Sequence record: NC_047885.1
Origin: Escherichia phage chee24
Length of the DNA: 64,000 nucleotides
Direction: 5' to 3' (one strand)
Shown here: positions 3,337-41,893 of the stretch, piece after piece
How positions within the stretch are numbered: the stretch's first letter is position 1
Layout of the letters: each line of letters opens with the position of its first letter
Translations under genes and position numbers: made by a program
Notes under the pieces: generated by a model
What the model was told of the DNA's origin: nothing
The model's database searches: none
The model's input: only the letters and a program-made list of their open reading frames with translations

Positions 3337-3582
3337 TTAACTAATTGGCACTAGGCTAGAACTAACACCACAAACAACGGCAGCAATAAAACAAAGTAAG
3401 CCCAAACGCTTTGCTAATTTAGATTTACGTTTAAAATAATACGAATCTAAATCATTTTGAAAATAAGCGAACAATAGGGAGGCCGCTACAATAAATAAGC
3501 CTAAAATTAGCGATTCAGTGGGAAAGAAAACCATTTTAATAACTCCAGTCAAAGGGAAATTATAGTGGGGAATATTCCCCAC
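3337..3582 (-). CDS. small hydrophobic membrane protein (81 aa)
   Basis: ORF with two hydrophobic segments; in pre-early operon. Confidence 0.45.
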   Translation of the reverse strand: MGNIPHYNFPLTGVIKMVFFPTESLILGLFIVAASLLFAYFQNDLDSYYFKRKSKLAKRLGLLCFIAAVVCGVSSSLVPIS

Positions 3583-3591
3583 TAATTAAAT

Positions 3592-3999
3592 TTATTCGCC
3601 TGCGGCTTGTTTTACTTCATCGGCAACGCCTAACAGTTGCGCCACGGCGTCCAGCGTTTCTAATTTTGCGCTTTCCAGCGATGCCAGATCGTCGGCGTCT
3701 TTGATAATGCCGGAATCAATAGCATGTTTAGCGATAACGCGCACATAGTGAGCCTTACGAATTGAACTGCCGCCGCCAACTTTGCGCGGCTTATCGCTTT
3801 TCTGGTACGCTTTTGCGCTGGTCAATTTTGAGCGAACAGACACGGGAGAAGCCGCACCAACTGTTTTTGCGATCTCTTTCAGGCCGTCGCTGTTGGCGAA
3901 CTCCAAGCCGTTTTCATTGATCAACTGTTGATACATGGTAACAGCCTGCTGGGTGTTTTCTTCATTCCAAGAGAATTTTGCGGTTTTAGCGTTAGTCAT
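3592..3999 (-). CDS. A2: A2-like pre-early protein (135 aa)
   Basis: 135 aa ORF immediately downstream of A1 on same strand; size and position match T5 A2; no catalytic motif seen. Confidence 0.55.
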   Translation of the reverse strand: MTNAKTAKFSWNEENTQQAVTMYQQLINENGLEFANSDGLKEIAKTVGAASPVSVRSKLTSAKAYQKSDKPRKVGGGSSIRKAHYVRVIAKHAIDSGIIKDADDLASLESAKLETLDAVAQLLGVADEVKQAAGE

Positions 4000-4097: not shown

Positions 4098-4349
4098 TTA
4101 TAAAACAGCTTCCCATTTTTCGTTGCGCTGGGCAACCTTTACAACGTCGCCGGATTTAACCCGAACGCTATAAATAGTTTTCCCGTTGTTACTCCGTTCC
4201 GTTTCAGCGTATACCGCATCAATTACATCAAACGGCATAAGCGCCGCGCCTTTAATGCGTTCGGCCTTTCCGGTTAATTCGTCCGTTTTAGTAACGAAAG
4301 GAATAAAAACGGATTGACCAATTTTTGGCGCATTAGTAACGTTTTTCAT
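4098..4349 (-). CDS. hypothetical protein (83 aa)
   Basis: ORF in pre-early block. Confidence 0.45.
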   Translation of the reverse strand: MKNVTNAPKIGQSVFIPFVTKTDELTGKAERIKGAALMPFDVIDAVYAETERSNNGKTIYSVRVKSGDVVKVAQRNEKWEAVL

Positions 4350-4577
4350 GGTATAAACTCCAGTTTATTCAGTGGATTGTTCCGCATTACCTGCTAGAAA
4401 GTAGCAGGTAATAAGCAACAATCCGCTCGCCATTATAATCAATTTAAAGAACTCCACTCAGGCCGCTATATCCCAGTTAGGGGGCGGGACACATTATGGT
4501 AAGTGCCGACCGTCAAATTTTATCAAGTTATCGCTCTCATCGAACTGGGTACATCTTAAAGCCTATCGGCTAGGGTG

Positions 4578-4936: not shown

Positions 4937-5372
4937 ATCTGCGATTCCTTATAATGAATAAGTTTACCGCCGATAGACTTTAAGATATACCCAATTTTTA
5001 AAGAGCGCGGCGGTAAACTTCCCGCCGTGTAGTTCGTCATTGCCGCCCTACGTGATAAATAATAGGGTATTCCCGAAAATGGCGCAACCTTATTTTTGTA
5101 AAGAAACGTAAAGAAAGCAACACGTTCGGCGCTCACCTAAGTTTAAAGGAAACGGGCGCGCGAATACCATAAAACCAAGCAGATAGGCAAGTAATTTTTT
5201 CATTTATATTTGCCTTGCCCTACTTGACAAAATCTAAAAAGCTCGTGGTAGCGATAAACGGCTTATCCCCTTATGATGGGATGGCTAAAAACTTCATCGC
5301 GTTCTAGGACGTTTTAGGCGCATTCTAGCCTTGTTGATAACTTATCCCCAAAAGCAAAAATGAAATTTTCCT

Positions 5373-37511: not shown

Positions 37512-38030
37512 TTAGAAATTTAGCTTCATAGCAAGAAAATTTTTCAAGTTTTCGGTAGACATCTCATCCACATCTACAGGAGAAACAAATCCATTTAATT
37601 GTCTAGCAAATTTTTCACCAGCAGGATCATTATCCCCAACAGCTACCAATTTAAAAGGTAGTAATTTCAATTGCTTTAACAACGCTTTTCCTGGAGAAGA
37701 ACCCAACATTGCCAGGGCTGGATAACCAGCGTTATGTAATGCTACGGCCTTAAATACAGATTCCGCAACCAATACTACTTTTTCATCCCCATTGAGAGTT
37801 TCCAGCCCCCATACACACTGTGTAGTAGAATAAGTAAAATACTTAGCTTCAAAAGGAGATTTACCATGACCTTTTGGAGCAGAAGGATTATAAGTCTGAT
37901 AGCCTCTCAACATCCCAGAGAAGTCATACAATGGGACTGTTAGCCATCCTTCCGGACTTAACCAGCAATGATATTTATCTGTATCAAACCCTCTAGATAA
38001 GAGATGTTCTGTTAGTTCATCAACAGTCAT
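37512..38030 (-). CDS. Toprim-like domain protein
   Basis: 172 aa; VVLVAES ... VAVGDNDPAGEKFARQL resembles Toprim acidic motifs; promoter at 38059-38087. Confidence 0.5.
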   Translation of the reverse strand: MTVDELTEHLLSRGFDTDKYHCWLSPEGWLTVPLYDFSGMLRGYQTYNPSAPKGHGKSPFEAKYFTYSTTQCVWGLETLNGDEKVVLVAESVFKAVALHNAGYPALAMLGSSPGKALLKQLKLLPFKLVAVGDNDPAGEKFARQLNGFVSPVDVDEMSTENLKNFLAMKLNF

Positions 38031-38087: not shown

Positions 38088-38203
38088 TTGAATTTTTTAA
38101 CTTTTTAGAGGAAAATCACAGGATGCTTACGGGTAGCAGGTAAGTGGTCAGGACCGAAATTTGTGACCCCACTAAAAATCTGGGGTCAATTTTTAAAGAC
38201 CCC

Positions 38204-38232
38204 TTGACATTTTTGCCGGGGTAGTGTAAAGT
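38204..38232 (+). promoter_or_regulatory. sigma70 promoter (-35 TTGACA, 17-nt spacer, -10 TAAAGT)
   Basis: Consensus -35; preceded by overlapping GACCCC/GGGGTC hairpins. Confidence 0.55.
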
Positions 38233-38294
38233 ATATGTTATGGATGAGTGATCAAAGAGACACACATTTTCTATATACTAGGAGGTGTCAAAAA

Positions 38295-39275
38295 ATGACA
38301 GAAGAAGTAGCTAAGAGTCCTGAAACCGTCGCTAGCGTAGCAGCAGAACTGCATCGTCACGAGGAATCAGATAAGAAAAAGTGGGAGAAAGTCAAAGCCT
38401 ACGAAGAAGAACATCGTGAACACGATGATAAAGATGAAGAAGATGACGATGATGAACATTGTCATAAATATGGAAAACATAAAATGCAAGAACCAGTAAA
38501 CGTATTTACTAATGGCTTCCCTGGCATGGGTGCATTCCCAGCTAACGCAAGTGCTTTCGGTGGAGAAGGTATGGGTCTATTCGGAGCTATCCTAATCGGT
38601 GCTCTATTAACAGGCGGATTTGGTGGTTTTGGTGGTTTTGGCCGTGGTGCTGGCGTTGCCGCTGAAGGGACTGCTGTGGACGCGATCCTTTCTAACCAAG
38701 ATACTGCAAGTATTCTAGCTGCAATCAATACTACTCGTACAGAAGCTAACCAGGGCACTGGGGCTGTTCTAAGCGCAGTAAACGGTGTGGGAGCTGCTCA
38801 AGCTGCTAGCACTCAGCAAGTTCTGACTACTATCTACGGTACAGGTGCTAATCTGTCAAACCAGATCTGTGCTGAAACTCGTAACGTTATTCAGGGTCAG
38901 TTCGATCTTTCTCGTCAGATGGATCAATCTTTCGCTGCTAACCAGATCGCACGTGCTCAAGATAAGTTTGACTCTGCTCAGATTGCTTTCCAGCAGTCTA
39001 TTCAGACCAATAACCAGTTTGCCGCTGTTCAGGCTCAGATGTGTGCTAACCAGAATGCTATAGAGCGTCAGCTTGCTGAATGTTGCTGTGAACTTCAGAC
39101 TGCGATCGCTGGTGTAACTACTGCGCGTATCCAGGACGAACTGAATGAATGCCGTCTGCGTGAAGCAATCGCTCAAGGTAGTGGTGCTAACGGTCAGGTA
39201 ATTAACCAAATCGCTGTAAGTCTTGGTGCTATCACTCAGACTCTGGCTGGTCTGCAGGCTAAACTGCCGGCTTAA
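38295..39275 (+). CDS. low-complexity protein: acidic N-terminus, Gly-rich hydrophobic segment, Gln/Ala-rich C-terminus
   Basis: 326 aa from ATG with AGGAGG RBS inside track ORF 38235-39275; consensus promoter at 38204-38232. Confidence 0.6.
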   Translation: MTEEVAKSPETVASVAAELHRHEESDKKKWEKVKAYEEEHREHDDKDEEDDDDEHCHKYGKHKMQEPVNVFTNGFPGMGAFPANASAFGGEGMGLFGAILIGALLTGGFGGFGGFGRGAGVAAEGTAVDAILSNQDTASILAAINTTRTEANQGTGAVLSAVNGVGAAQAASTQQVLTTIYGTGANLSNQICAETRNVIQGQFDLSRQMDQSFAANQIARAQDKFDSAQIAFQQSIQTNNQFAAVQAQMCANQNAIERQLAECCCELQTAIAGVTTARIQDELNECRLREAIAQGSGANGQVINQIAVSLGAITQTLAGLQAKLPA

Positions 39276-39296
39276 AATTAAGGGGAGGAGCCCATT

Positions 39297-39713
39297 ATGA
39301 GTAAATATGGTTTTGTAAACAACGGATTTAATCAACAAATGGGCTCCCAGCAGCCCGTTCCGGGTCTGGATAATCCTTACCTACAACAGTTGCAACAGCG
39401 TTTAGCAGAAGCGCAACAGATGCAGCAACAACTCCAGCAAAACCCTGGAAGTGTGAGTCCTATGCAAATGATGCAGCAAATGAGCGGGCAGTCGCAAATG
39501 CCTCAACAAATGCAGCAACAGGTGCCTCAGCAGCAAGTTCAGCAACAAACCCAACAACCGCAGGTTTCTGCGGAAGGACAGGCAGTACTAGCTCTTTTCG
39601 AAGATTTCGCAAAGACAGAGGATGGGAAACAGCTTGTATCACTTATGGGTAAGTTTAATAGCTTCTGCCAAAGCCAGGTTGCAAAAGCTCAAAATGGTGA
39701 TAATAACTCCTAA
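39297..39713 (+). CDS. glutamine-rich protein (138 aa)
   Basis: ORF with GGGGAGGAG RBS; second gene of rightward operon. Confidence 0.55.
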   Translation: MSKYGFVNNGFNQQMGSQQPVPGLDNPYLQQLQQRLAEAQQMQQQLQQNPGSVSPMQMMQQMSGQSQMPQQMQQQVPQQQVQQQTQQPQVSAEGQAVLALFEDFAKTEDGKQLVSLMGKFNSFCQSQVAKAQNGDNNS

Positions 39714-39722
39714 GGAGGAATT

Positions 39723-39917
39723 ATGTGTTGCAGAAAATCTGTTTCGTGCTGCCCAATGCCTGTAGCACGTTGTTGCTCTCCAGCAATGTTTACACAAATA
39801 CCGGCGTTCAATCCCTTTGCCTTTAAGCCTACTCTTATCCTGCCCCCTAGAGTAGATTTTCAGTCAAGATTGGCCTCCCGTATGGGTGGTTGCTGTAACA
39901 AGAGTATATGGTTCTAA
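39723..39917 (+). CDS. Cys-rich small protein (64 aa)
   Basis: ORF with AAGGAGG RBS; contains 8 Cys including CC pairs; followed by hairpin terminators. Confidence 0.5.
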   Translation: MCCRKSVSCCPMPVARCCSPAMFTQIPAFNPFAFKPTLILPPRVDFQSRLASRMGGCCNKSIWF

Positions 39918-39933
39918 AGAACCAATAATAAAA

Positions 39934-39968
39934 AGCCCCTAGTCGAAAGACTTAGGGGCTTTTCTCTT
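39934..39968 (+). terminator. rho-independent terminator (possibly bidirectional)
   Basis: Hairpin AGCCCCTAGTC..GACTTAGGGGCT flanked by AAAA upstream and TTTT downstream. Confidence 0.65.
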
Positions 39969-39984
39969 ATCTTAAATACAGAAA

Positions 39985-40016
39985 AGCCCTGCGCTCTCCA
40001 GGGAACGCAGGGCTTA
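39985..40016 (-). terminator. rho-independent terminator for leftward SPFH gene
   Basis: Hairpin AGCCCTGCG..CGCAGGGCT with T-run on minus strand. Confidence 0.6.
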
Positions 40017-40038: not shown

Positions 40039-40986
40039 TTACTTGTTACGCATATCCATAATCATCTGGCCATCATAACCAGTGCCAACCACAGTCTGCG
40101 GTACACCACCTTGATACTTCTGAGCACGAATCATTTCAACTTCTAGTTGCTTCCAGCGAATCATCTCAGGAGTAATGGTACGTTGCAGAGCAGCGTTAGC
40201 TTCAGCTTCTTTCTTAGCTGCATACAGTTTAGCATCTGCATCACGTTCGTTTGCAATAGCTTGGTTGTTACGAGCTTCACGATCTGCTTCTGCTTGTTTA
40301 ACCTTCTGCTGTGCTTCTTGTTCAACGCGAGCTAATTCAGCTTTCGCAGCATTAACTTGTTCTTCGCGAACTTTGGTATTCTGTACCTGTTCCATAATTA
40401 CCGGTGGCAATGTAATATCCTGAAGGAACACTTGCTTAACTGTGTAACCATAGGGGCGTGCATACTCTTCAACTTCCTGTTGAATTGCAGTTTGCAATTG
40501 TGCTTGAATTTTAGCATCAAACAAATCTTGTGCTTTAGGTACAGACTTACCAAACTCACGAATAGTAGACAGTAATTTTTCAGTTACATACTTATCTAGA
40601 GCCTGATCTTGAGTACCCGCATTAATACGGTTGATCGGTGCCTTAGAACCATCAAACTGCAACATAACAGTCAGGTCAACAGTGGATTTAAACTTATCCT
40701 GGCTAGGAACCTGAAGTTTATCTAATTTTACAGCAATATCTTTTGTACTAAAAGTATCGAAAGATGCAAATGGGTTTACAAGATGGAAACCAGGTAATAC
40801 TGGGTTAGGATCTACTTTACCTAGAAATGTTTGGGTTTTAACCGTACCATCAGAAACAATAGTATATGAATTAAAAGCTAGGATTAAACCTGCTAAACCA
40901 ACTACAGCACCAATACTCCAACGTTTAATAGTGCGAATTACTTTTTGCTCAGAAGTCAGTTCTTTCATATTTTTAGTATTAGACAT
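40039..40986 (-). CDS. SPFH/band-7 (prohibitin/HflC-like) membrane protein
   Basis: 315 aa; N-terminal TM helix, SPFH-like core, charged coiled-coil C-terminus. Confidence 0.6.
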   Translation of the reverse strand: MSNTKNMKELTSEQKVIRTIKRWSIGAVVGLAGLILAFNSYTIVSDGTVKTQTFLGKVDPNPVLPGFHLVNPFASFDTFSTKDIAVKLDKLQVPSQDKFKSTVDLTVMLQFDGSKAPINRINAGTQDQALDKYVTEKLLSTIREFGKSVPKAQDLFDAKIQAQLQTAIQQEVEEYARPYGYTVKQVFLQDITLPPVIMEQVQNTKVREEQVNAAKAELARVEQEAQQKVKQAEADREARNNQAIANERDADAKLYAAKKEAEANAALQRTITPEMIRWKQLEVEMIRAQKYQGGVPQTVVGTGYDGQMIMDMRNK

Positions 40987-41095: not shown

Positions 41096-41597
41096 TTTAA
41101 GTATTTTTAAGAACTCTCGTAAAAACTCTTAAAAATACAGACGATACCGGGAGAGTCATAAGTCTCACTCATTAAGTATTTCAAGACAAAATACAGTAAC
41201 GTCTATTATTTTCCAGTTTAAGTCAAGGTGACTTAGTGGTTATGTCCTGCGGTATACTGAGGACTAGGTTAGGTTAGGGTCATGACTCCCCACCTTTTTG
41301 CTGCTACTCAACAGGAGTTATCGCGAATTACCTGTGCTATTGTGCACCATTAGTGGCATCTCTCATGCCAGCATTTCCCACTTTGTGGATAGTTTGAAAA
41401 ACTACTCCGATATGGAGAAAGAACTTCACTATCCTAGAATACCTTCTAAAGTTCTTCTTTAGCCTGGACATAGTTAAATCGTAATAAAACTATTCAGCAG
41501 ACTGGTTGGTTAGTCTGGAACCAACTACCGCGTGGTTTAGGCAGTGCGCAACTAACCTCGGAAGCTTTTACATTAAAAGCACCAGTTATCCAGTTCT

Positions 41598-41670
41598 TAC
41601 CGACCGTAGGATTCGAACCTACATCTTCCACCAGTTACGGCTTGATAATACCGTTTTATACTAGATCGGC
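41598..41670 (-). other. tRNA-like element (acceptor and perfect T-arm; anticodon arm unresolved)
   Basis: T-arm GTAGG-TTCGAAT-CCTAC and acceptor GCCGATC/GGTCGGT; CCA not encoded. Confidence 0.35.
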
Positions 41671-41893
41671 AGTGTTACTACATAAGTGATTTCCACACCC
41701 CACTATCAGTAAATTAGAGAAGAGTTTAGGGGAGAGGTTTCAGACGCCCCATTTTACACGTTCTAGCCACTAACCGGGATTGCCGCCCCCTGTGTACTAG
41801 TTTTCCAACTAACCCACCGACTCTATTCAATGCGCTCCGGTTGGGATTCTGCACTCAGCGTAATCGGCTCGCTGTTCTCTAATTTATGAATAT

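What the first reader, a model, noticed from the sequence alone, without database searches (positions are those of the whole stretch)
38160..39970. Divergent three-gene operon of low-complexity proteins embedded in the leftward early region
A consensus TTGACA promoter preceded by two mutually exclusive hairpins (GACCCC..TGGGGTC and GGGGTC..GACCCC, 38163-38203) drives three rightward genes. These are a 326-aa protein (acidic N-terminus, Gly-rich hydrophobic segment GMGLFGAILIGALLTGGFGGFGGFG, Gln/Ala-rich tail), a 138-aa Gln-rich protein and a 64-aa protein with eight cysteines, ending in back-to-back terminators. The strand switch, private regulation and unusual composition suggest a self-contained module such as membrane remodelling, exclusion or condensate formation.
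Basis: partly seen in the sequence, partly recalled or inferred. Interest (0 to 1): 0.6.

Follow-up and report, generated by a model that had tools for sequence, protein, structure and literature searches.

The report
Mobile three-gene phage operon, function unknown
This is a real, selectively maintained three-gene operon of phage T5 and its relatives: a probably membrane-anchored helical protein with an invariant triple cysteine, a glutamine-rich partner and a tiny cysteine-pair protein. It moves as a unit between unrelated phages and is dispensable in the laboratory, and its function is still unknown.

Summary
The window is a T5-like phage (100% identical to 'T5-like pork27', about 97% to T5). 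The finding corresponds to T5 genes T5.077, T5.078 and T5.079, which are BF23 'ORF 326aa/138aa/64aa'. GenBank already annotates them with promoter P12 and a bidirectional terminator, all as hypothetical proteins.

**Confirmed**
- All three ORFs are under purifying selection (dN/dS 0.05-0.3). The antisense ORFs are not conserved.
- The order P1-P2-P3-terminator recurs in distant T5-likes, an N4-like phage, two lambdoid phages, Pseudomonas phage KPP23 and a 57%-GC contig. It usually lies opposite to its neighbours, so it is a self-contained, horizontally mobile cassette.
- It is dispensable. T5st0 lacks it, and DT57C and HildyBeyeler lost it through independent deletions.

**The proteins**
- P1 belongs to a large uncharacterised phage family (449 clusters): a Gly-rich hydrophobic segment, a roughly 195-residue helical rod with hydrophobic period 3.65, and an invariant CCC.
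- P2 and P3 occur only with P1 forms that carry the N-terminal helical/acidic domain.

**Not supported**
- The 'alternative hairpins' lie upstream of the -35, are weak, and are not conserved.

**Best reading (inferred)**
- A moron-like accessory module that builds a thiol-linked, envelope-associated complex. No homology to any characterised family was found.

The parts
38165..38203 (.). GACCCC / GGGGTC / GACCCC repeat element immediately upstream of the -35 hexamer
   Evidence: It occurs once in the window, with 0 expected by chance. The CCCC..GGGG..CCCC core is conserved, but the GGGGTC arm reads GGGGGC in T5, BF23 and five others. Folding z is -2.0 here and -0.15 in T5. It lies outside the P12 transcript.
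38204..38232 (+). Sigma-70-type promoter TTGACA-17-TAAAGT (T5/BF23 'promoter P12')
   Evidence: 10 of 12 consensus matches. Annotated as promoter P12 in NC_005859 and AJ604530. The hexamers are invariant in 8 phages. The same TTGACA-17-TA(A/G)AGT stands before P1 in the distant T5-likes L011 and L012.
38233..38294 (+). 5' leader with RBS AGGAGG (38280-38285), almost invariant among T5-likes
   Evidence: Alignment of 8 phages. No significant RNA structure: z = -1.3 and +0.3.
38295..39275 (+). Gene 1 (P1, 326 aa; T5.077 / BF23 ORF 326aa). It has an N-terminal helix with an acidic/His-rich region, a conserved EPVNVFTNGFP motif, a Gly-rich hydrophobic segment and a long helical rod with an invariant CCC.
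   Evidence: dN/dS 0.06-0.18. PHROG 8119, E = 1.6e-197, function unknown. Family of 449 clusters. AlphaFold2 helices at residues 12-44, 129-273 and 276-323.
38574..38648 (+). Codons for the Gly-rich hydrophobic segment (residues 94-118, GLFGAILIGALLTGGFGGFGGFGRG): putative membrane anchor
   Evidence: Maximum Kyte-Doolittle 19-residue mean of 1.72 at residues 94-112. Nearly invariant Gly and Leu columns. 'GLFGAI' drives weak, non-significant matches to influenza HA2 fusion peptides.
39081..39089 (+). Codons TGT TGC TGT for the Cys263-Cys264-Cys265 triplet
   Evidence: Invariant in A1, A3 and A4 and at least 90% conserved in A5.
39297..39713 (+). Gene 2 (P2, 138 aa; T5.078). It has a conserved N-terminal helix (PYLQQLQQRLAEAQ), a variable P/Q/M-rich linker, and a conserved C-terminal domain (LFEDFAKTEDGKQLVS..GKFNSFCQS) with an invariant Cys.
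   Evidence: dN/dS 0.05-0.15. PHROG 7894, function unknown. Alignment A6. A profile of P2 hits 9 of 9 long-form loci and 0 of 52 short-form loci.
39723..39917 (+). Gene 3 (P3, 64 aa; T5.079). A basic (+7) micro-protein that starts MCC, with four CC pairs, 8 Pro and an FNPF motif.
   Evidence: RBS AAGGAGGA upstream. dN/dS 0-0.30. Positional counterparts starting MCC, MCGCC or MSCNCGC follow P2 in L011, L012, L013, L073, L074, L075 and L076.
39930..39963 (+). Intrinsic terminator of the operon (A-run, 14-bp GC-rich stem, T-run), bidirectional
   Evidence: -21.3 kcal/mol, z = -4.9. Annotated 'efficient bidirectional rho-independent terminator' in T5. Every other context also has a strong hairpin with a T-run directly after P3.
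39984..40015 (-). Terminator hairpin of the convergent leftward SPFH gene. It marks the right boundary of the cassette and carries the T5 major nick site (GCGC at 39991-39994).
   Evidence: -25.8 kcal/mol, z = -5.5. The nick is annotated in T5 and BF23 at the homologous position.

Best explanation
The region is an autonomous, horizontally mobile, non-essential early operon of the 'moron' type. It encodes three proteins that most likely work together as one envelope-associated complex.

- **P1** is anchored in or on the inner membrane by a Gly-zipper-like hydrophobic segment. It projects a long alpha-helical rod (about 145 plus 48 residues, hydrophobic period about 3.65) that probably self-associates. 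An invariant Cys-Cys-Cys sits on the rod.
- **P2** is an adaptor: a conserved N-terminal helix, a flexible P/Q-rich linker and a small conserved C-terminal domain with one invariant Cys.
- **P3** is a basic micro-protein built around Cys-Cys pairs.

P2 and P3 have no export signals. They occur only with P1 versions that carry the N-terminal helical/acidic domain, so they probably dock on that domain on the cytoplasmic side. The conserved cysteines in all three proteins probably hold the assembly together, either by disulfides or by a shared metal-thiolate centre.

The complex is made early in infection from a host-RNA-polymerase promoter. It gives a conditional advantage at the cell envelope. 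The most likely roles are protecting the infected cell (exclusion of other phages, envelope stabilisation) or tuning lysis. It does not contribute to replication, virion assembly or basic lysis.

**Shown:** the genes are real, conserved and co-inherited; the unit is mobile; it is dispensable; the architecture of the proteins.
**Inferred:** membrane location, physical complex, thiol linkage and the envelope role.
For: - Real genes: third-position-biased substitution and dN/dS of 0.05-0.3 for all three.
- One unit: P1-P2-P3 in the same order, followed at once by a strong terminator hairpin, in 8 contexts. These cover T5-likes, an N4-like phage with vRNAP, two lambdoid phages (between Q and the holin-lysozyme-Rz genes, opposite strand), KPP23-type Pseudomonas phages and a 57%-GC contig.
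- Accessory and dispensable: T5st0 deletes T5p067-T5p078, which includes the operon. DT57C and HildyBeyeler carry different deletion scars. Only 216 of 392 T5-like records have the full operon.
- T5 has separate holin, endolysin and Rz-like spanin genes. KPP23 marks one neighbouring ORF 'virion protein', but ORF072-074 are only 'hypothetical protein'.
- Membrane anchor: Kyte-Doolittle 1.72 over residues 94-112. A comparable hydrophobic segment (17-residue mean of at least 1.2) was found in 90 CCC-containing family members.
- Rod: AlphaFold2 with 58 sequences gives a continuous helix at 129-273 plus 276-323 with pLDDT 65-79. Hydrophobic periodicity is 3.65, reached by 0 of 1000 shuffles.
- Cysteines: CCC is invariant. 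P2 Cys124 is invariant. P3 keeps an N-terminal Cys-rich start (MCC in most contexts) and CC pairs while the rest of its sequence diverges.
- Coupling to the N-terminal domain: the P2 profile hits 9 of 9 long-form loci and 0 of 52 short-form loci, and no genuine P3-like ORF occurs in short-form loci. The N-terminal helix 12-44 has pLDDT 89-97. The N-domain has net charge -11 and P3 has +7.
Against: - No experimental data on expression, location or phenotype were found.
- Topology is ambiguous. Both flanks of the hydrophobic segment are poor in Lys/Arg (0.3 before it, 1.0 after it). This weakly favours N-out for short forms, while the charged 90-residue N-domain of long forms argues for N-in.
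- AlphaFold2 does not model the hydrophobic segment as a helix (pLDDT below 50), so it could be a non-membrane low-complexity element.
- There is no significant similarity to any exclusion, lysis or membrane-remodelling protein in Pfam, NCBIfam, PADLOC or PDB.
- Co-occurrence of P2/P3 with the N-domain is a correlation, not evidence of binding.
- Disulfides would not form if all parts are cytoplasmic.
Confidence: 0.4

Rival explanations
1. Metal-thiolate module. The Cys triplet in an oligomeric helix, the CC pairs of P3 and the His/Asp/Glu-rich N-terminal region of P1 bind a soft metal (Cu, Zn, Cd) or an Fe-S-type centre. The complex sequesters, delivers or senses metal during infection.
For: - CCC is invariant and P3 keeps its CC pairs.
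- There are His-rich runs (HHYHHHHHEHY, HCHKYGKHK) and a conserved L-x-x-H-E motif in the N-domain.
- Neither P2 nor P3 has a hydrophobic stretch long enough for a signal peptide (maximum 19-residue Kyte-Doolittle means 0.45 and 0.85). This fits a reducing compartment, where thiols bind metal rather than form disulfides.
- A neighbour of a short-form relative gives a weak Ferritin-domain hit (E = 6e-4, below the Pfam cut-off).
- Non-T5 contexts add a divergent Zn-ribbon gene.
Against: - No match to metallothionein, copper-storage, CopZ/HMA or any metal-binding family.
- The His-rich stretches are variable insertions, not conserved.
- The ferritin hit is sub-threshold and is not part of the three-gene unit.
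- No known need of T5 for such a function.
Confidence: 0.15
2. Accessory lysis or lysis-timing device. The Gly/Ala-rich anchor behaves like a SAR or fusion-peptide segment. The long rod spans the periplasm, so the module modulates holin triggering or outer-membrane disruption.
For: - In lambdoid contexts the cassette sits directly beside holin-lysozyme-Rz.
- Short-form relatives lie near lysozyme and small membrane-protein genes (L038, L070).
- The segment GLFGAILIGALL resembles the HA2 fusion peptide, and the weak PDB profile hits are mostly class I fusion-protein stalks.
- A 145-residue helix is about 21 nm long, comparable to the periplasm width (inference).
- The rod is low in charge and rich in N/Q/S/T/A, like extracytoplasmic fibres.
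Against: - All PDB hits are non-significant (E of at least 0.016), and Foldseek finds nothing.
- T5 and the lambdoid phages have their own spanins.
- T5st0 lacks the operon yet is the standard laboratory production strain.
- P3 has no signal peptide or lipobox, so it is not an o-spanin.
- In T5 the operon is far from the lysis genes.
- The hydrophobic segment is internal (residue 94) in long forms, unlike SAR domains.
Confidence: 0.15
3. Cytoplasmic self-assembling scaffold or condensate. P1 forms intermediate-filament-like rods with Gly/Phe-rich heads. These are decorated or cross-linked by a Q-rich protein and a Cys-pair protein, analogous to keratin and keratin-associated proteins. The assembly organises or sequesters components in the infected cell.
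For: - A GGFGGFGGFG segment next to a long coiled-coil-type rod.
- A weak vimentin hit (E = 0.12).
- P2 is 28% Gln.
- P3 carries CCxP-type motifs (SCCPMP, RCCSP).
- No signal peptides on P2 or P3.
Against: - This rests on compositional analogy only. No significant similarity was found.
- The hydrophobic core LFGAILIGALL is more membrane-like than the Gly loops of keratins (Kyte-Doolittle 1.72).
- Stable disulfide cross-links are unlikely in the E. coli cytoplasm.
- Q-richness in P2 is confined to a length-variable linker.
Confidence: 0.12
4. The ORFs are not the functional elements. Either the antisense ORFs (38462-38758, 38856-39338) are the real genes, or the region is non-coding.
For: Long antisense open frames exist in this phage (98 and 160 aa).
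Against: - Substitutions concentrate at sense third positions, with dN/dS below 0.2.
- The antisense open stretches shrink to 58 aa in L6jm and vary widely elsewhere.
- The sense proteins are conserved down to 35-45% identity in other phage lineages, with RBSs and a terminator.
- Antisense openness is expected from the GCN/CAG-rich codon usage.
Confidence: 0.01

Closest known systems
Phage T5 genes T5.077, T5.078 and T5.079 with promoter P12 and the bidirectional terminator (NC_005859 / AY543070); BF23 'ORF 326aa', 'ORF 138aa', 'ORF 64aa' (AJ604530)
   Same: Orthologous: 96.9-97.7% nucleotide identity across the whole region, with the same gene order, promoter, terminators and adjacent nick site.
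   Different: No meaningful difference. These records list the proteins only as hypothetical. AY587007 splits gene 1 into two ORFs, omits gene 3 and labels gene 2 'cAMP-dependent protein kinase catalytic subunit', a low-complexity artefact.
Phage 'morons' (for example lambda bor/lom, HK97 gp15, stx between Q and S in lambdoid phages)
   Same: A self-contained transcription unit with its own promoter and terminator. It is inserted between, and often opposite to, backbone genes. It has a patchy distribution, is dispensable for lytic growth, and in two lambdoid contigs occupies the classical Q-to-holin slot.
   Different: It occurs mostly in virulent phages and is essentially absent from bacterial genomes: only 7 weak hits, all on contigs of metagenome-assembled genomes. 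It is therefore not a lysogenic-conversion element. It has three co-inherited genes from novel families.
Superinfection-exclusion membrane proteins expressed early (T4 Imm and Sp, HK97 gp15, T5 Llp)
   Same: Early, non-essential, small accessory units that act at the envelope of the infected cell. They typically have a single hydrophobic anchor. This comparison comes from established knowledge of those proteins, not from a test here.
   Different: No sequence or profile similarity. Those systems are single proteins, whereas this is a three-protein unit with conserved cysteines and a 195-residue rod. No exclusion phenotype is known.
PHROG 8119, 9288 and 16490 (uncharacterised phage protein families; for example Edwardsiella phage eiAU gp08, Seuratvirus STP-SP5, Aeromonas phiWae15)
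   Same: The same core: a short N-tail, a Gly-rich hydrophobic segment, an N/Q/S/T-rich helix, an invariant CCC(E) and a C-terminal ..IL.HL.P.
   Different: These short forms lack the N-terminal helical/acidic domain and lack P2 and P3. They sit after tail genes or near lysis genes. In the metagenomic viral-contig loci they are paired with an unrelated protein of about 97 aa, and in eiAU-type cultured phages with other unknown families (PHROGs 9157, 8329 and 7239).
Class I viral fusion subunits (influenza HA2) and phage spanins
   Same: Shared architecture of a Gly-rich hydrophobic peptide (P1 residues 94-99, GLFGAI, as at the HA2 N-terminus) followed by a long helical stalk. Cysteines sit in a helical rod, as in Rz.
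   Different: Matches are statistically insignificant (E = 0.016-0.9), and there is no structural hit. The hydrophobic period is 3.65 rather than 3.5. There is no lipoprotein partner. The host phages have canonical Rz-type spanins.

Membership tests
T5.077-T5.079 orthologous operon of Tequintavirus/Epseptimavirus | High nucleotide identity and the same position between the Toprim gene (T5.076) or the nadR-like gene and the SPFH gene (T5.080) | tested here: met
   96.9% identity to T5 and 97.7% to BF23 over 1901 nt. Flanking genes are identified by Pfam as Toprim and Band_7. Annotation tables agree.
T5.077-T5.079 orthologous operon of Tequintavirus/Epseptimavirus | Three ORFs of about 326, 138 and 64 aa with promoter P12 and a bidirectional terminator | tested here: met
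Moron-type accessory transcription unit | Own promoter and own terminator flanking the genes | tested here: met
   By sequence and annotation only: a promoter-like site with 10 of 12 matches, annotated as P12, and a terminator after P3 in all 8 contexts. No transcript mapping was available.
Moron-type accessory transcription unit | Presence/absence polymorphism among otherwise collinear genomes, and occurrence in unrelated backbones | tested here: met
   216 of 392 T5-like records carry it. Deletions are seen in DT57C, HildyBeyeler, phiR2-01, SE7 and T5st0. The unit also occurs in N4-like, lambdoid and KPP23-type phages.
Moron-type accessory transcription unit | Dispensable for lytic growth | tested here: met
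   The T5st0 record marks the st0 recombination site between the remnants of T5p066 and T5p079. T5st0 is used as a standard production strain.
Two-component spanin (Rz/Rz1-type) | Partner outer-membrane lipoprotein with a signal peptide and lipobox Cys | tested here: not met
   P3 starts MCCRKS with no hydrophobic signal sequence (maximum Kyte-Doolittle 0.85). P2 has no signal sequence either.
Two-component spanin (Rz/Rz1-type) | Match to the Phage_lysis/Rz families, or the phage's only candidate for the outer-membrane disruption step | tested here: not met
   No Pfam or PHROG lysis hit. T5 has the Rz-like spanins T5.044/T5.045, and the lambdoid contigs have PF03245 proteins.
Class I viral fusion protein (HA2-like) | Significant sequence or fold similarity to a fusion subunit | tested here: not met
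   Best profile hit is 4kps_B at E = 0.016, with the others at 0.07-0.9. Foldseek finds 0 hits in PDB and nothing significant in BFVD.
SAR (signal-arrest-release) domain proteins | N-terminal transmembrane segment rich in Gly/Ala/Ser/Thr | tested here: inconclusive
   Composition fits: 10 of the 19 residues at 94-112 are Gly, Ala or Thr. But the segment begins at residue 94 in long forms, and release from the membrane cannot be tested here.
Superinfection-exclusion proteins | Blocks infection by a second phage when expressed | not testable with these tools
   No similarity to known exclusion or defence models. A phenotypic assay is needed.
Metallothionein / Cys-rich metal-binding proteins | Match to a metal-binding family, or demonstrated metal content | tested here: inconclusive
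   No family match for P1 or P3. The Cys motifs are conserved. Metal content cannot be tested here.
cAMP-dependent protein kinase catalytic subunit (GenBank label on gene 2 in several records) | Protein kinase domain | tested here: not met
   No Pkinase hit. Only sub-threshold low-complexity matches were found. The label is an artefact of the Gln-rich linker.

The most novel reading that the evidence does not exclude
The P1 family (Gly-rich anchor, hendecad-type helical rod, invariant Cys triplet) defines a widespread but uncharacterised class of phage membrane proteins. The long-form P1-P2-P3 cassette would then be a new kind of portable, thiol-linked (disulfide- or metal-bridged) envelope machine that phages of very different lineages exchange. 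Its role would be to remodel or guard the membrane of the infected cell, for example as a new mechanism of superinfection exclusion or lysis control.
Probability: 0.25. Interest if true: 0.7.

Novelty: new variant of a known kind. Interest (0 to 1): 0.5.

Why it matters
T5 is a classical model phage, yet this operon has stood as 'hypothetical' in its records since they were deposited.

The work here turns an unexplained oddity into a defined and testable object:
- It is a three-gene cassette with fixed order and boundaries.
- Unrelated phage lineages share it: T5-like, N4-like, lambdoid and Pseudomonas KPP23-type.
- Its first gene belongs to a family of at least 449 sequence clusters with an invariant triple cysteine and no known function.

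Natural presence/absence pairs already exist in culture collections:
- T5 against T5st0.
- BASEL phages IrisVonRoten, GreteKellenberger, TrudiGerster and IrmaTschudi (present) against HildyBeyeler (absent).
- DT57C, which also lacks it.

A phenotype can therefore be sought at once. If the module proves to be a new exclusion, envelope-protection or lysis-control system, it would add a widely distributed accessory function to phage biology. It would also matter when choosing or engineering T5-like phages for therapy and biocontrol.

Tried and rejected
- **Family libraries.** For P1, P2, P3 and several distant relatives, Pfam, NCBIfam and PADLOC gave only sub-threshold noise, and the PHROGs they matched are all of unknown function.
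- **Structure.**
  - AlphaFold2 with 20 sequences was poor (pLDDT 48).
  - With 58 sequences it gave a usable helical rod, but Foldseek found nothing in PDB or BFVD.
  - Profile searches against PDB sequences gave only non-significant coiled-coil and HA2 hits for P1 and nothing for P2.
- **Literature.** Searches for T5.077-079, T5p075-077 and gp077-079 found nothing on these genes, nor did searches for T5 transcriptomes, T5 deletion mutants, Tequintavirus RNA-seq or eiAU/Seuratvirus virion proteomics. A transposon-mutagenesis preprint concerned other phages.
- **Bas33 dataset.** The RNA-seq/proteome dataset (PMC13250531) looked promising, but HildyBeyeler lacks the operon, so it gives no expression evidence.
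- **Spanin idea.** Rejected: P3 has no lipobox and T5 has its own spanins.
- **Hairpins as attenuators.** Rejected: they lie upstream of the -35, are weak and are not conserved.
- **Structured 5' leader.** Rejected.
- **Other searches.**
  - A broad-alignment scan of viral contigs failed for lack of a conserved stretch, and a narrower alignment worked.
  - The scan of bacterial genomes gave only 7 weak hits, all on contigs of metagenome-assembled genomes.
  - The homologue search for P3 returned a single cluster, because gene callers usually miss it.
  - P2 homologues are confined to the long-form contexts.


Full report
**Identity of the window.** The 1.9-kb region is 100% identical to five 'Bacteriophage T5-like' isolates from meat (pork27, pork29, saus47N, saus111K, poul124). 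It is 96.9-97.7% identical to T5 and BF23. The window carries the T5-type cluster of 26 tRNA genes on the minus strand. In the curated T5 record the three ORFs are T5.077, T5.078 and T5.079. They are preceded by 'promoter P12' and followed by an 'efficient bidirectional rho-independent transcription terminator' and a major single-strand nick site. BF23 lists them as ORF 326aa, ORF 138aa and ORF 64aa, each with a ribosome-binding site. All are 'hypothetical'. A third T5 record splits gene 1, omits gene 3 and calls gene 2 a 'cAMP-dependent protein kinase catalytic subunit'. That label has no support.

**Checking the observation.**
- Coordinates and features are as described: the repeats at 38165-38203, TTGACA-17-TAAAGT at 38204-38232, genes at 38295-39275, 39297-39713 and 39723-39917, and two strong hairpins.
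- P1 has an acidic N-terminal part (net charge -11, 7 His). Its hydrophobic maximum is 1.72 at residues 94-112.
- P2 has 39 Gln in 138 residues.
- P3 has 8 Cys as four CC pairs, 8 Pro and a net charge of +7.

**Are they genes?** I compared eight T5-like phages with synonymous divergence up to 0.5-1.0.
- Variable sites by codon position are 62/42/181 (gene 1), 32/31/80 (gene 2) and 4/3/9 (gene 3).
- dN/dS is 0.06-0.18, 0.05-0.15 and 0-0.30 respectively.
- The antisense frames are open to very different extents, 58-186 aa across gene 1, so they are by-products of codon usage.
- Gene 3 is missed by most gene callers; only one protein cluster holds it. Even so, a small ORF beginning MCC, MCGCC or MSCNCGC, with further CC pairs and often an (F/V)NP(F/V) motif, follows gene 2 in every distant context examined.

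**A portable cassette.** P1 homologues of 35-45% identity lie on contigs of quite different phages:
- two divergent T5-like genomes (L011, L012);
- a 62-kb phage with a Mu-like portal (L013), matching Pseudomonas phages KPP23 and RSP;
- an N4-like phage with a 3440-aa virion RNA polymerase (L073);
- two lambdoid phages, where the unit sits between the Q antiterminator and holin-lysozyme-Rz on the opposite strand (L074, L075);
- a 57%-GC contig (L076).

In all of them the order is P1, P2, P3, followed at once by a strong hairpin with a T-run (-20 to -41 kcal/mol). In most, the unit points against its neighbours. The T5-like versions share the TTGACA-17-TA(A/G)AGT promoter. The non-T5 versions instead have a divergent 48-67-aa zinc-ribbon gene beside P1. 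In the lambdoid contigs a palindrome also overlaps the -10 region. That is a more plausible 'private regulator' than the hairpins.

**Dispensability and loss.**
- Only 216 of 392 T5-like records carry the full region.
- DT57C joins the Toprim and SPFH genes but retains the last roughly 30 nt of gene 3.
- HildyBeyeler retains promoter fragments. These are two independent deletions.
- Some Epseptimaviruses have the operon (Seabear, IrmaTschudi, TrudiGerster, GSW6) and others do not (phiR2-01, SE7).
- The heat-stable laboratory mutant T5st0 deletes T5p067-T5p078, which includes the operon. T5st0 is routinely used to produce phage.
- T5 has separate holin, endolysin and Rz-like spanin genes.
- The operon is therefore not needed for replication, virion assembly or lysis in laboratory E. 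coli.

**The P1 family.** A profile search found 449 cluster representatives at E of 1e-3 or better, and 72 at 1e-10 or better. Most are 240-300-aa 'short forms'. They have an uncharged N-tail of about 25 residues, the Gly-rich hydrophobic segment, an N/Q/S/T/A-rich helical domain, the invariant CCC and a C-terminal ..IL.HL.P. They map to PHROGs 8119, 9288 and 16490, all of unknown function. Cultured examples are Edwardsiella phage eiAU gp08, a Seuratvirus and Aeromonas phiWae15, where the gene follows the tail genes. In 48 metagenomic viral loci the short form is followed by a conserved protein of about 97 aa. It is often preceded by an HTH-like gene and a multi-pass membrane-protein gene, with lysozyme nearby in some loci. 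Bacterial genomes essentially lack the family; only 7 weak hits appeared, all on contigs of metagenome-assembled genomes.

**Structure and physical features.**
- With a 58-sequence alignment, AlphaFold2 gives a confident N-terminal helix at 12-44 (pLDDT about 90-97). Residues 45-128, which include the hydrophobic segment, are unmodelled. A continuous helix runs from 129 to 273 and another from 276 to 323 (pLDDT 65-79).
- The family-averaged hydrophobicity of residues 129-273 has a period of 3.65 residues, reached by 0 of 1000 shuffles. This is hendecad-like rather than heptad. It fits a straight amphipathic rod that either bundles or lies on a surface.
- The rod is poor in charged residues (about 12-14%) and about half N/Q/S/T/A.
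- Lys and Arg are scarce on both sides of the hydrophobic segment, so topology cannot be decided.
- No structural neighbour was found. The only sequence echoes in PDB are non-significant matches to HA2 and other viral or adhesin stalks. They are driven by 'GLFGAI' plus a long helix.

**Linking the three proteins.** A profile of P2 finds it in 9 of 9 long-form loci and in none of 52 short-form loci, and no genuine P3-like ORF occurs in the latter. P2 and P3 thus co-occur exactly with the N-terminal helical/acidic domain of P1. Neither has a hydrophobic stretch long enough for a signal peptide, and the basic P3 is complementary in charge to the acidic N-domain. Each protein keeps conserved cysteines while much else drifts. 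I infer a physical complex organised on the N-domain of P1 and held or activated through thiols. This is inference, not observation.

**The regulatory claim.**
- The GACCCC/GGGGTC/GACCCC element is real but lies upstream of the -35.
- Its hairpins are marginal here (z about -2) and absent in T5 (z = -0.15).
- The middle arm differs in the seven other phages aligned.
- The strongly conserved part is the promoter plus leader. Only 13 of 127 positions vary, comparable to second codon positions. The leader has no significant fold.

**Verdict.** The hairpin regulation is not supported, and the function remains unknown. Genetically it behaves as a moron-type accessory cassette. Its proteins belong to uncharacterised families. 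The best-supported mechanism is an early-made, envelope-associated, thiol-linked three-protein complex that gives a conditional advantage (confidence about 0.4). The rivals are metal binding, lysis modulation and a cytoplasmic scaffold.

Noticed in passing
window 39984-40015 (GCGC at 39991-39994; nick between 39995 and 39994 on the minus strand): The T5 'major nick 3 (32.6%)' site, consensus Pu|pGCGC, is conserved here. It lies inside the left arm of the terminator hairpin of the leftward SPFH gene, so a programmed DNA nick and a terminator stem share the same bases.
   Followed up: partly
L010 (DT57C) 3391-3601; L017 (HildyBeyeler) 4100-4386; window 38118-39885 and about 38266-39963: Two independent deletion scars of the operon. 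DT57C retains the last codons of gene 3 (matching window 39886-39932). HildyBeyeler retains promoter fragments (up to 38173, and 38222-38265).
   Followed up: yes
L013 4746-4892 (-), L073 2756-2911 (-), L074 2716-2919 (-), L075 2744-2917 (-), L076 2759-2914 (-): In non-T5 contexts a 48-67-aa zinc-ribbon protein (M.RRYCP.CG..C.ECG.WF.K.R.DQ.YC.PRCRQRK) is encoded divergently right next to P1. In L074 and L075 the palindrome GGTGCTAATACTTAGCACC overlaps the -10 region. This could be a dedicated regulator that the T5-like versions lack.
   Followed up: partly
L023-L070, for example L027 6666-6959 and L038 6652-6945: Short-form CCC proteins are always followed by a conserved protein of about 97 aa (MASPITVG..RFQNTG..IYLKK..AIYET.KV). 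It has no match in Pfam, PHROGs, NCBIfam or PADLOC. This is a second, different partner system for the same core protein.
   Followed up: partly
L027 6990-7559: A 189-aa neighbour of a short-form CCC gene gives a weak Ferritin-domain hit (E = 6e-4, 20.2 bits, below the cut-off of 24.5).
   Followed up: no
L084 (KPP23) 5049-5243 versus the MCC frame seen in L013 6419-6601: The annotated KPP23 ORF072 appears to be in a different reading frame from the conserved MCC-type P3 ORF. The homologous contig L013 carries the MCC ORF overlapping a GTG-started ORF that resembles the annotated one.
   Followed up: partly
L018 (GSW6) after 2183; L021 (L6jm) gene 1; P0007, P0012 and P0014: GSW6 gene 3 has lost its stop codon and runs on for about 40 extra codons. 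L6jm P1 has a replaced stretch (NNGFSQTSQNQSRDTQS). Several P1 variants carry a His-run insertion (HHYHHHHHEHY) in the N-terminal domain.
   Followed up: no
window 40039-40986 (-) and 37512-38030 (-): The flanking leftward genes encode an SPFH/Band-7 membrane protein (T5.080; Pfam E = 2e-17) and a small Toprim-only 'primase-like' protein (T5.076). The SPFH gene is also removed by the T5st0 deletion, but it is not part of the mobile cassette in other phages.
   Followed up: partly
window 41597-41671 (-): ARAGORN calls a tRNA-Ser with the unusual anticodon ACT. It lies inside what T5 records annotate as stable 'RNAX' or a pseudo-tRNA.
   Followed up: no
L008 (phiR2-01), L009 (SE7), L018, L020 and L022: Epseptimaviruses carry leftward nadR-like and pnuC-like NAD-salvage genes where Tequintaviruses have the Toprim gene. 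The operon sits between nadR and the SPFH gene in some of them and is deleted in others.
   Followed up: partly
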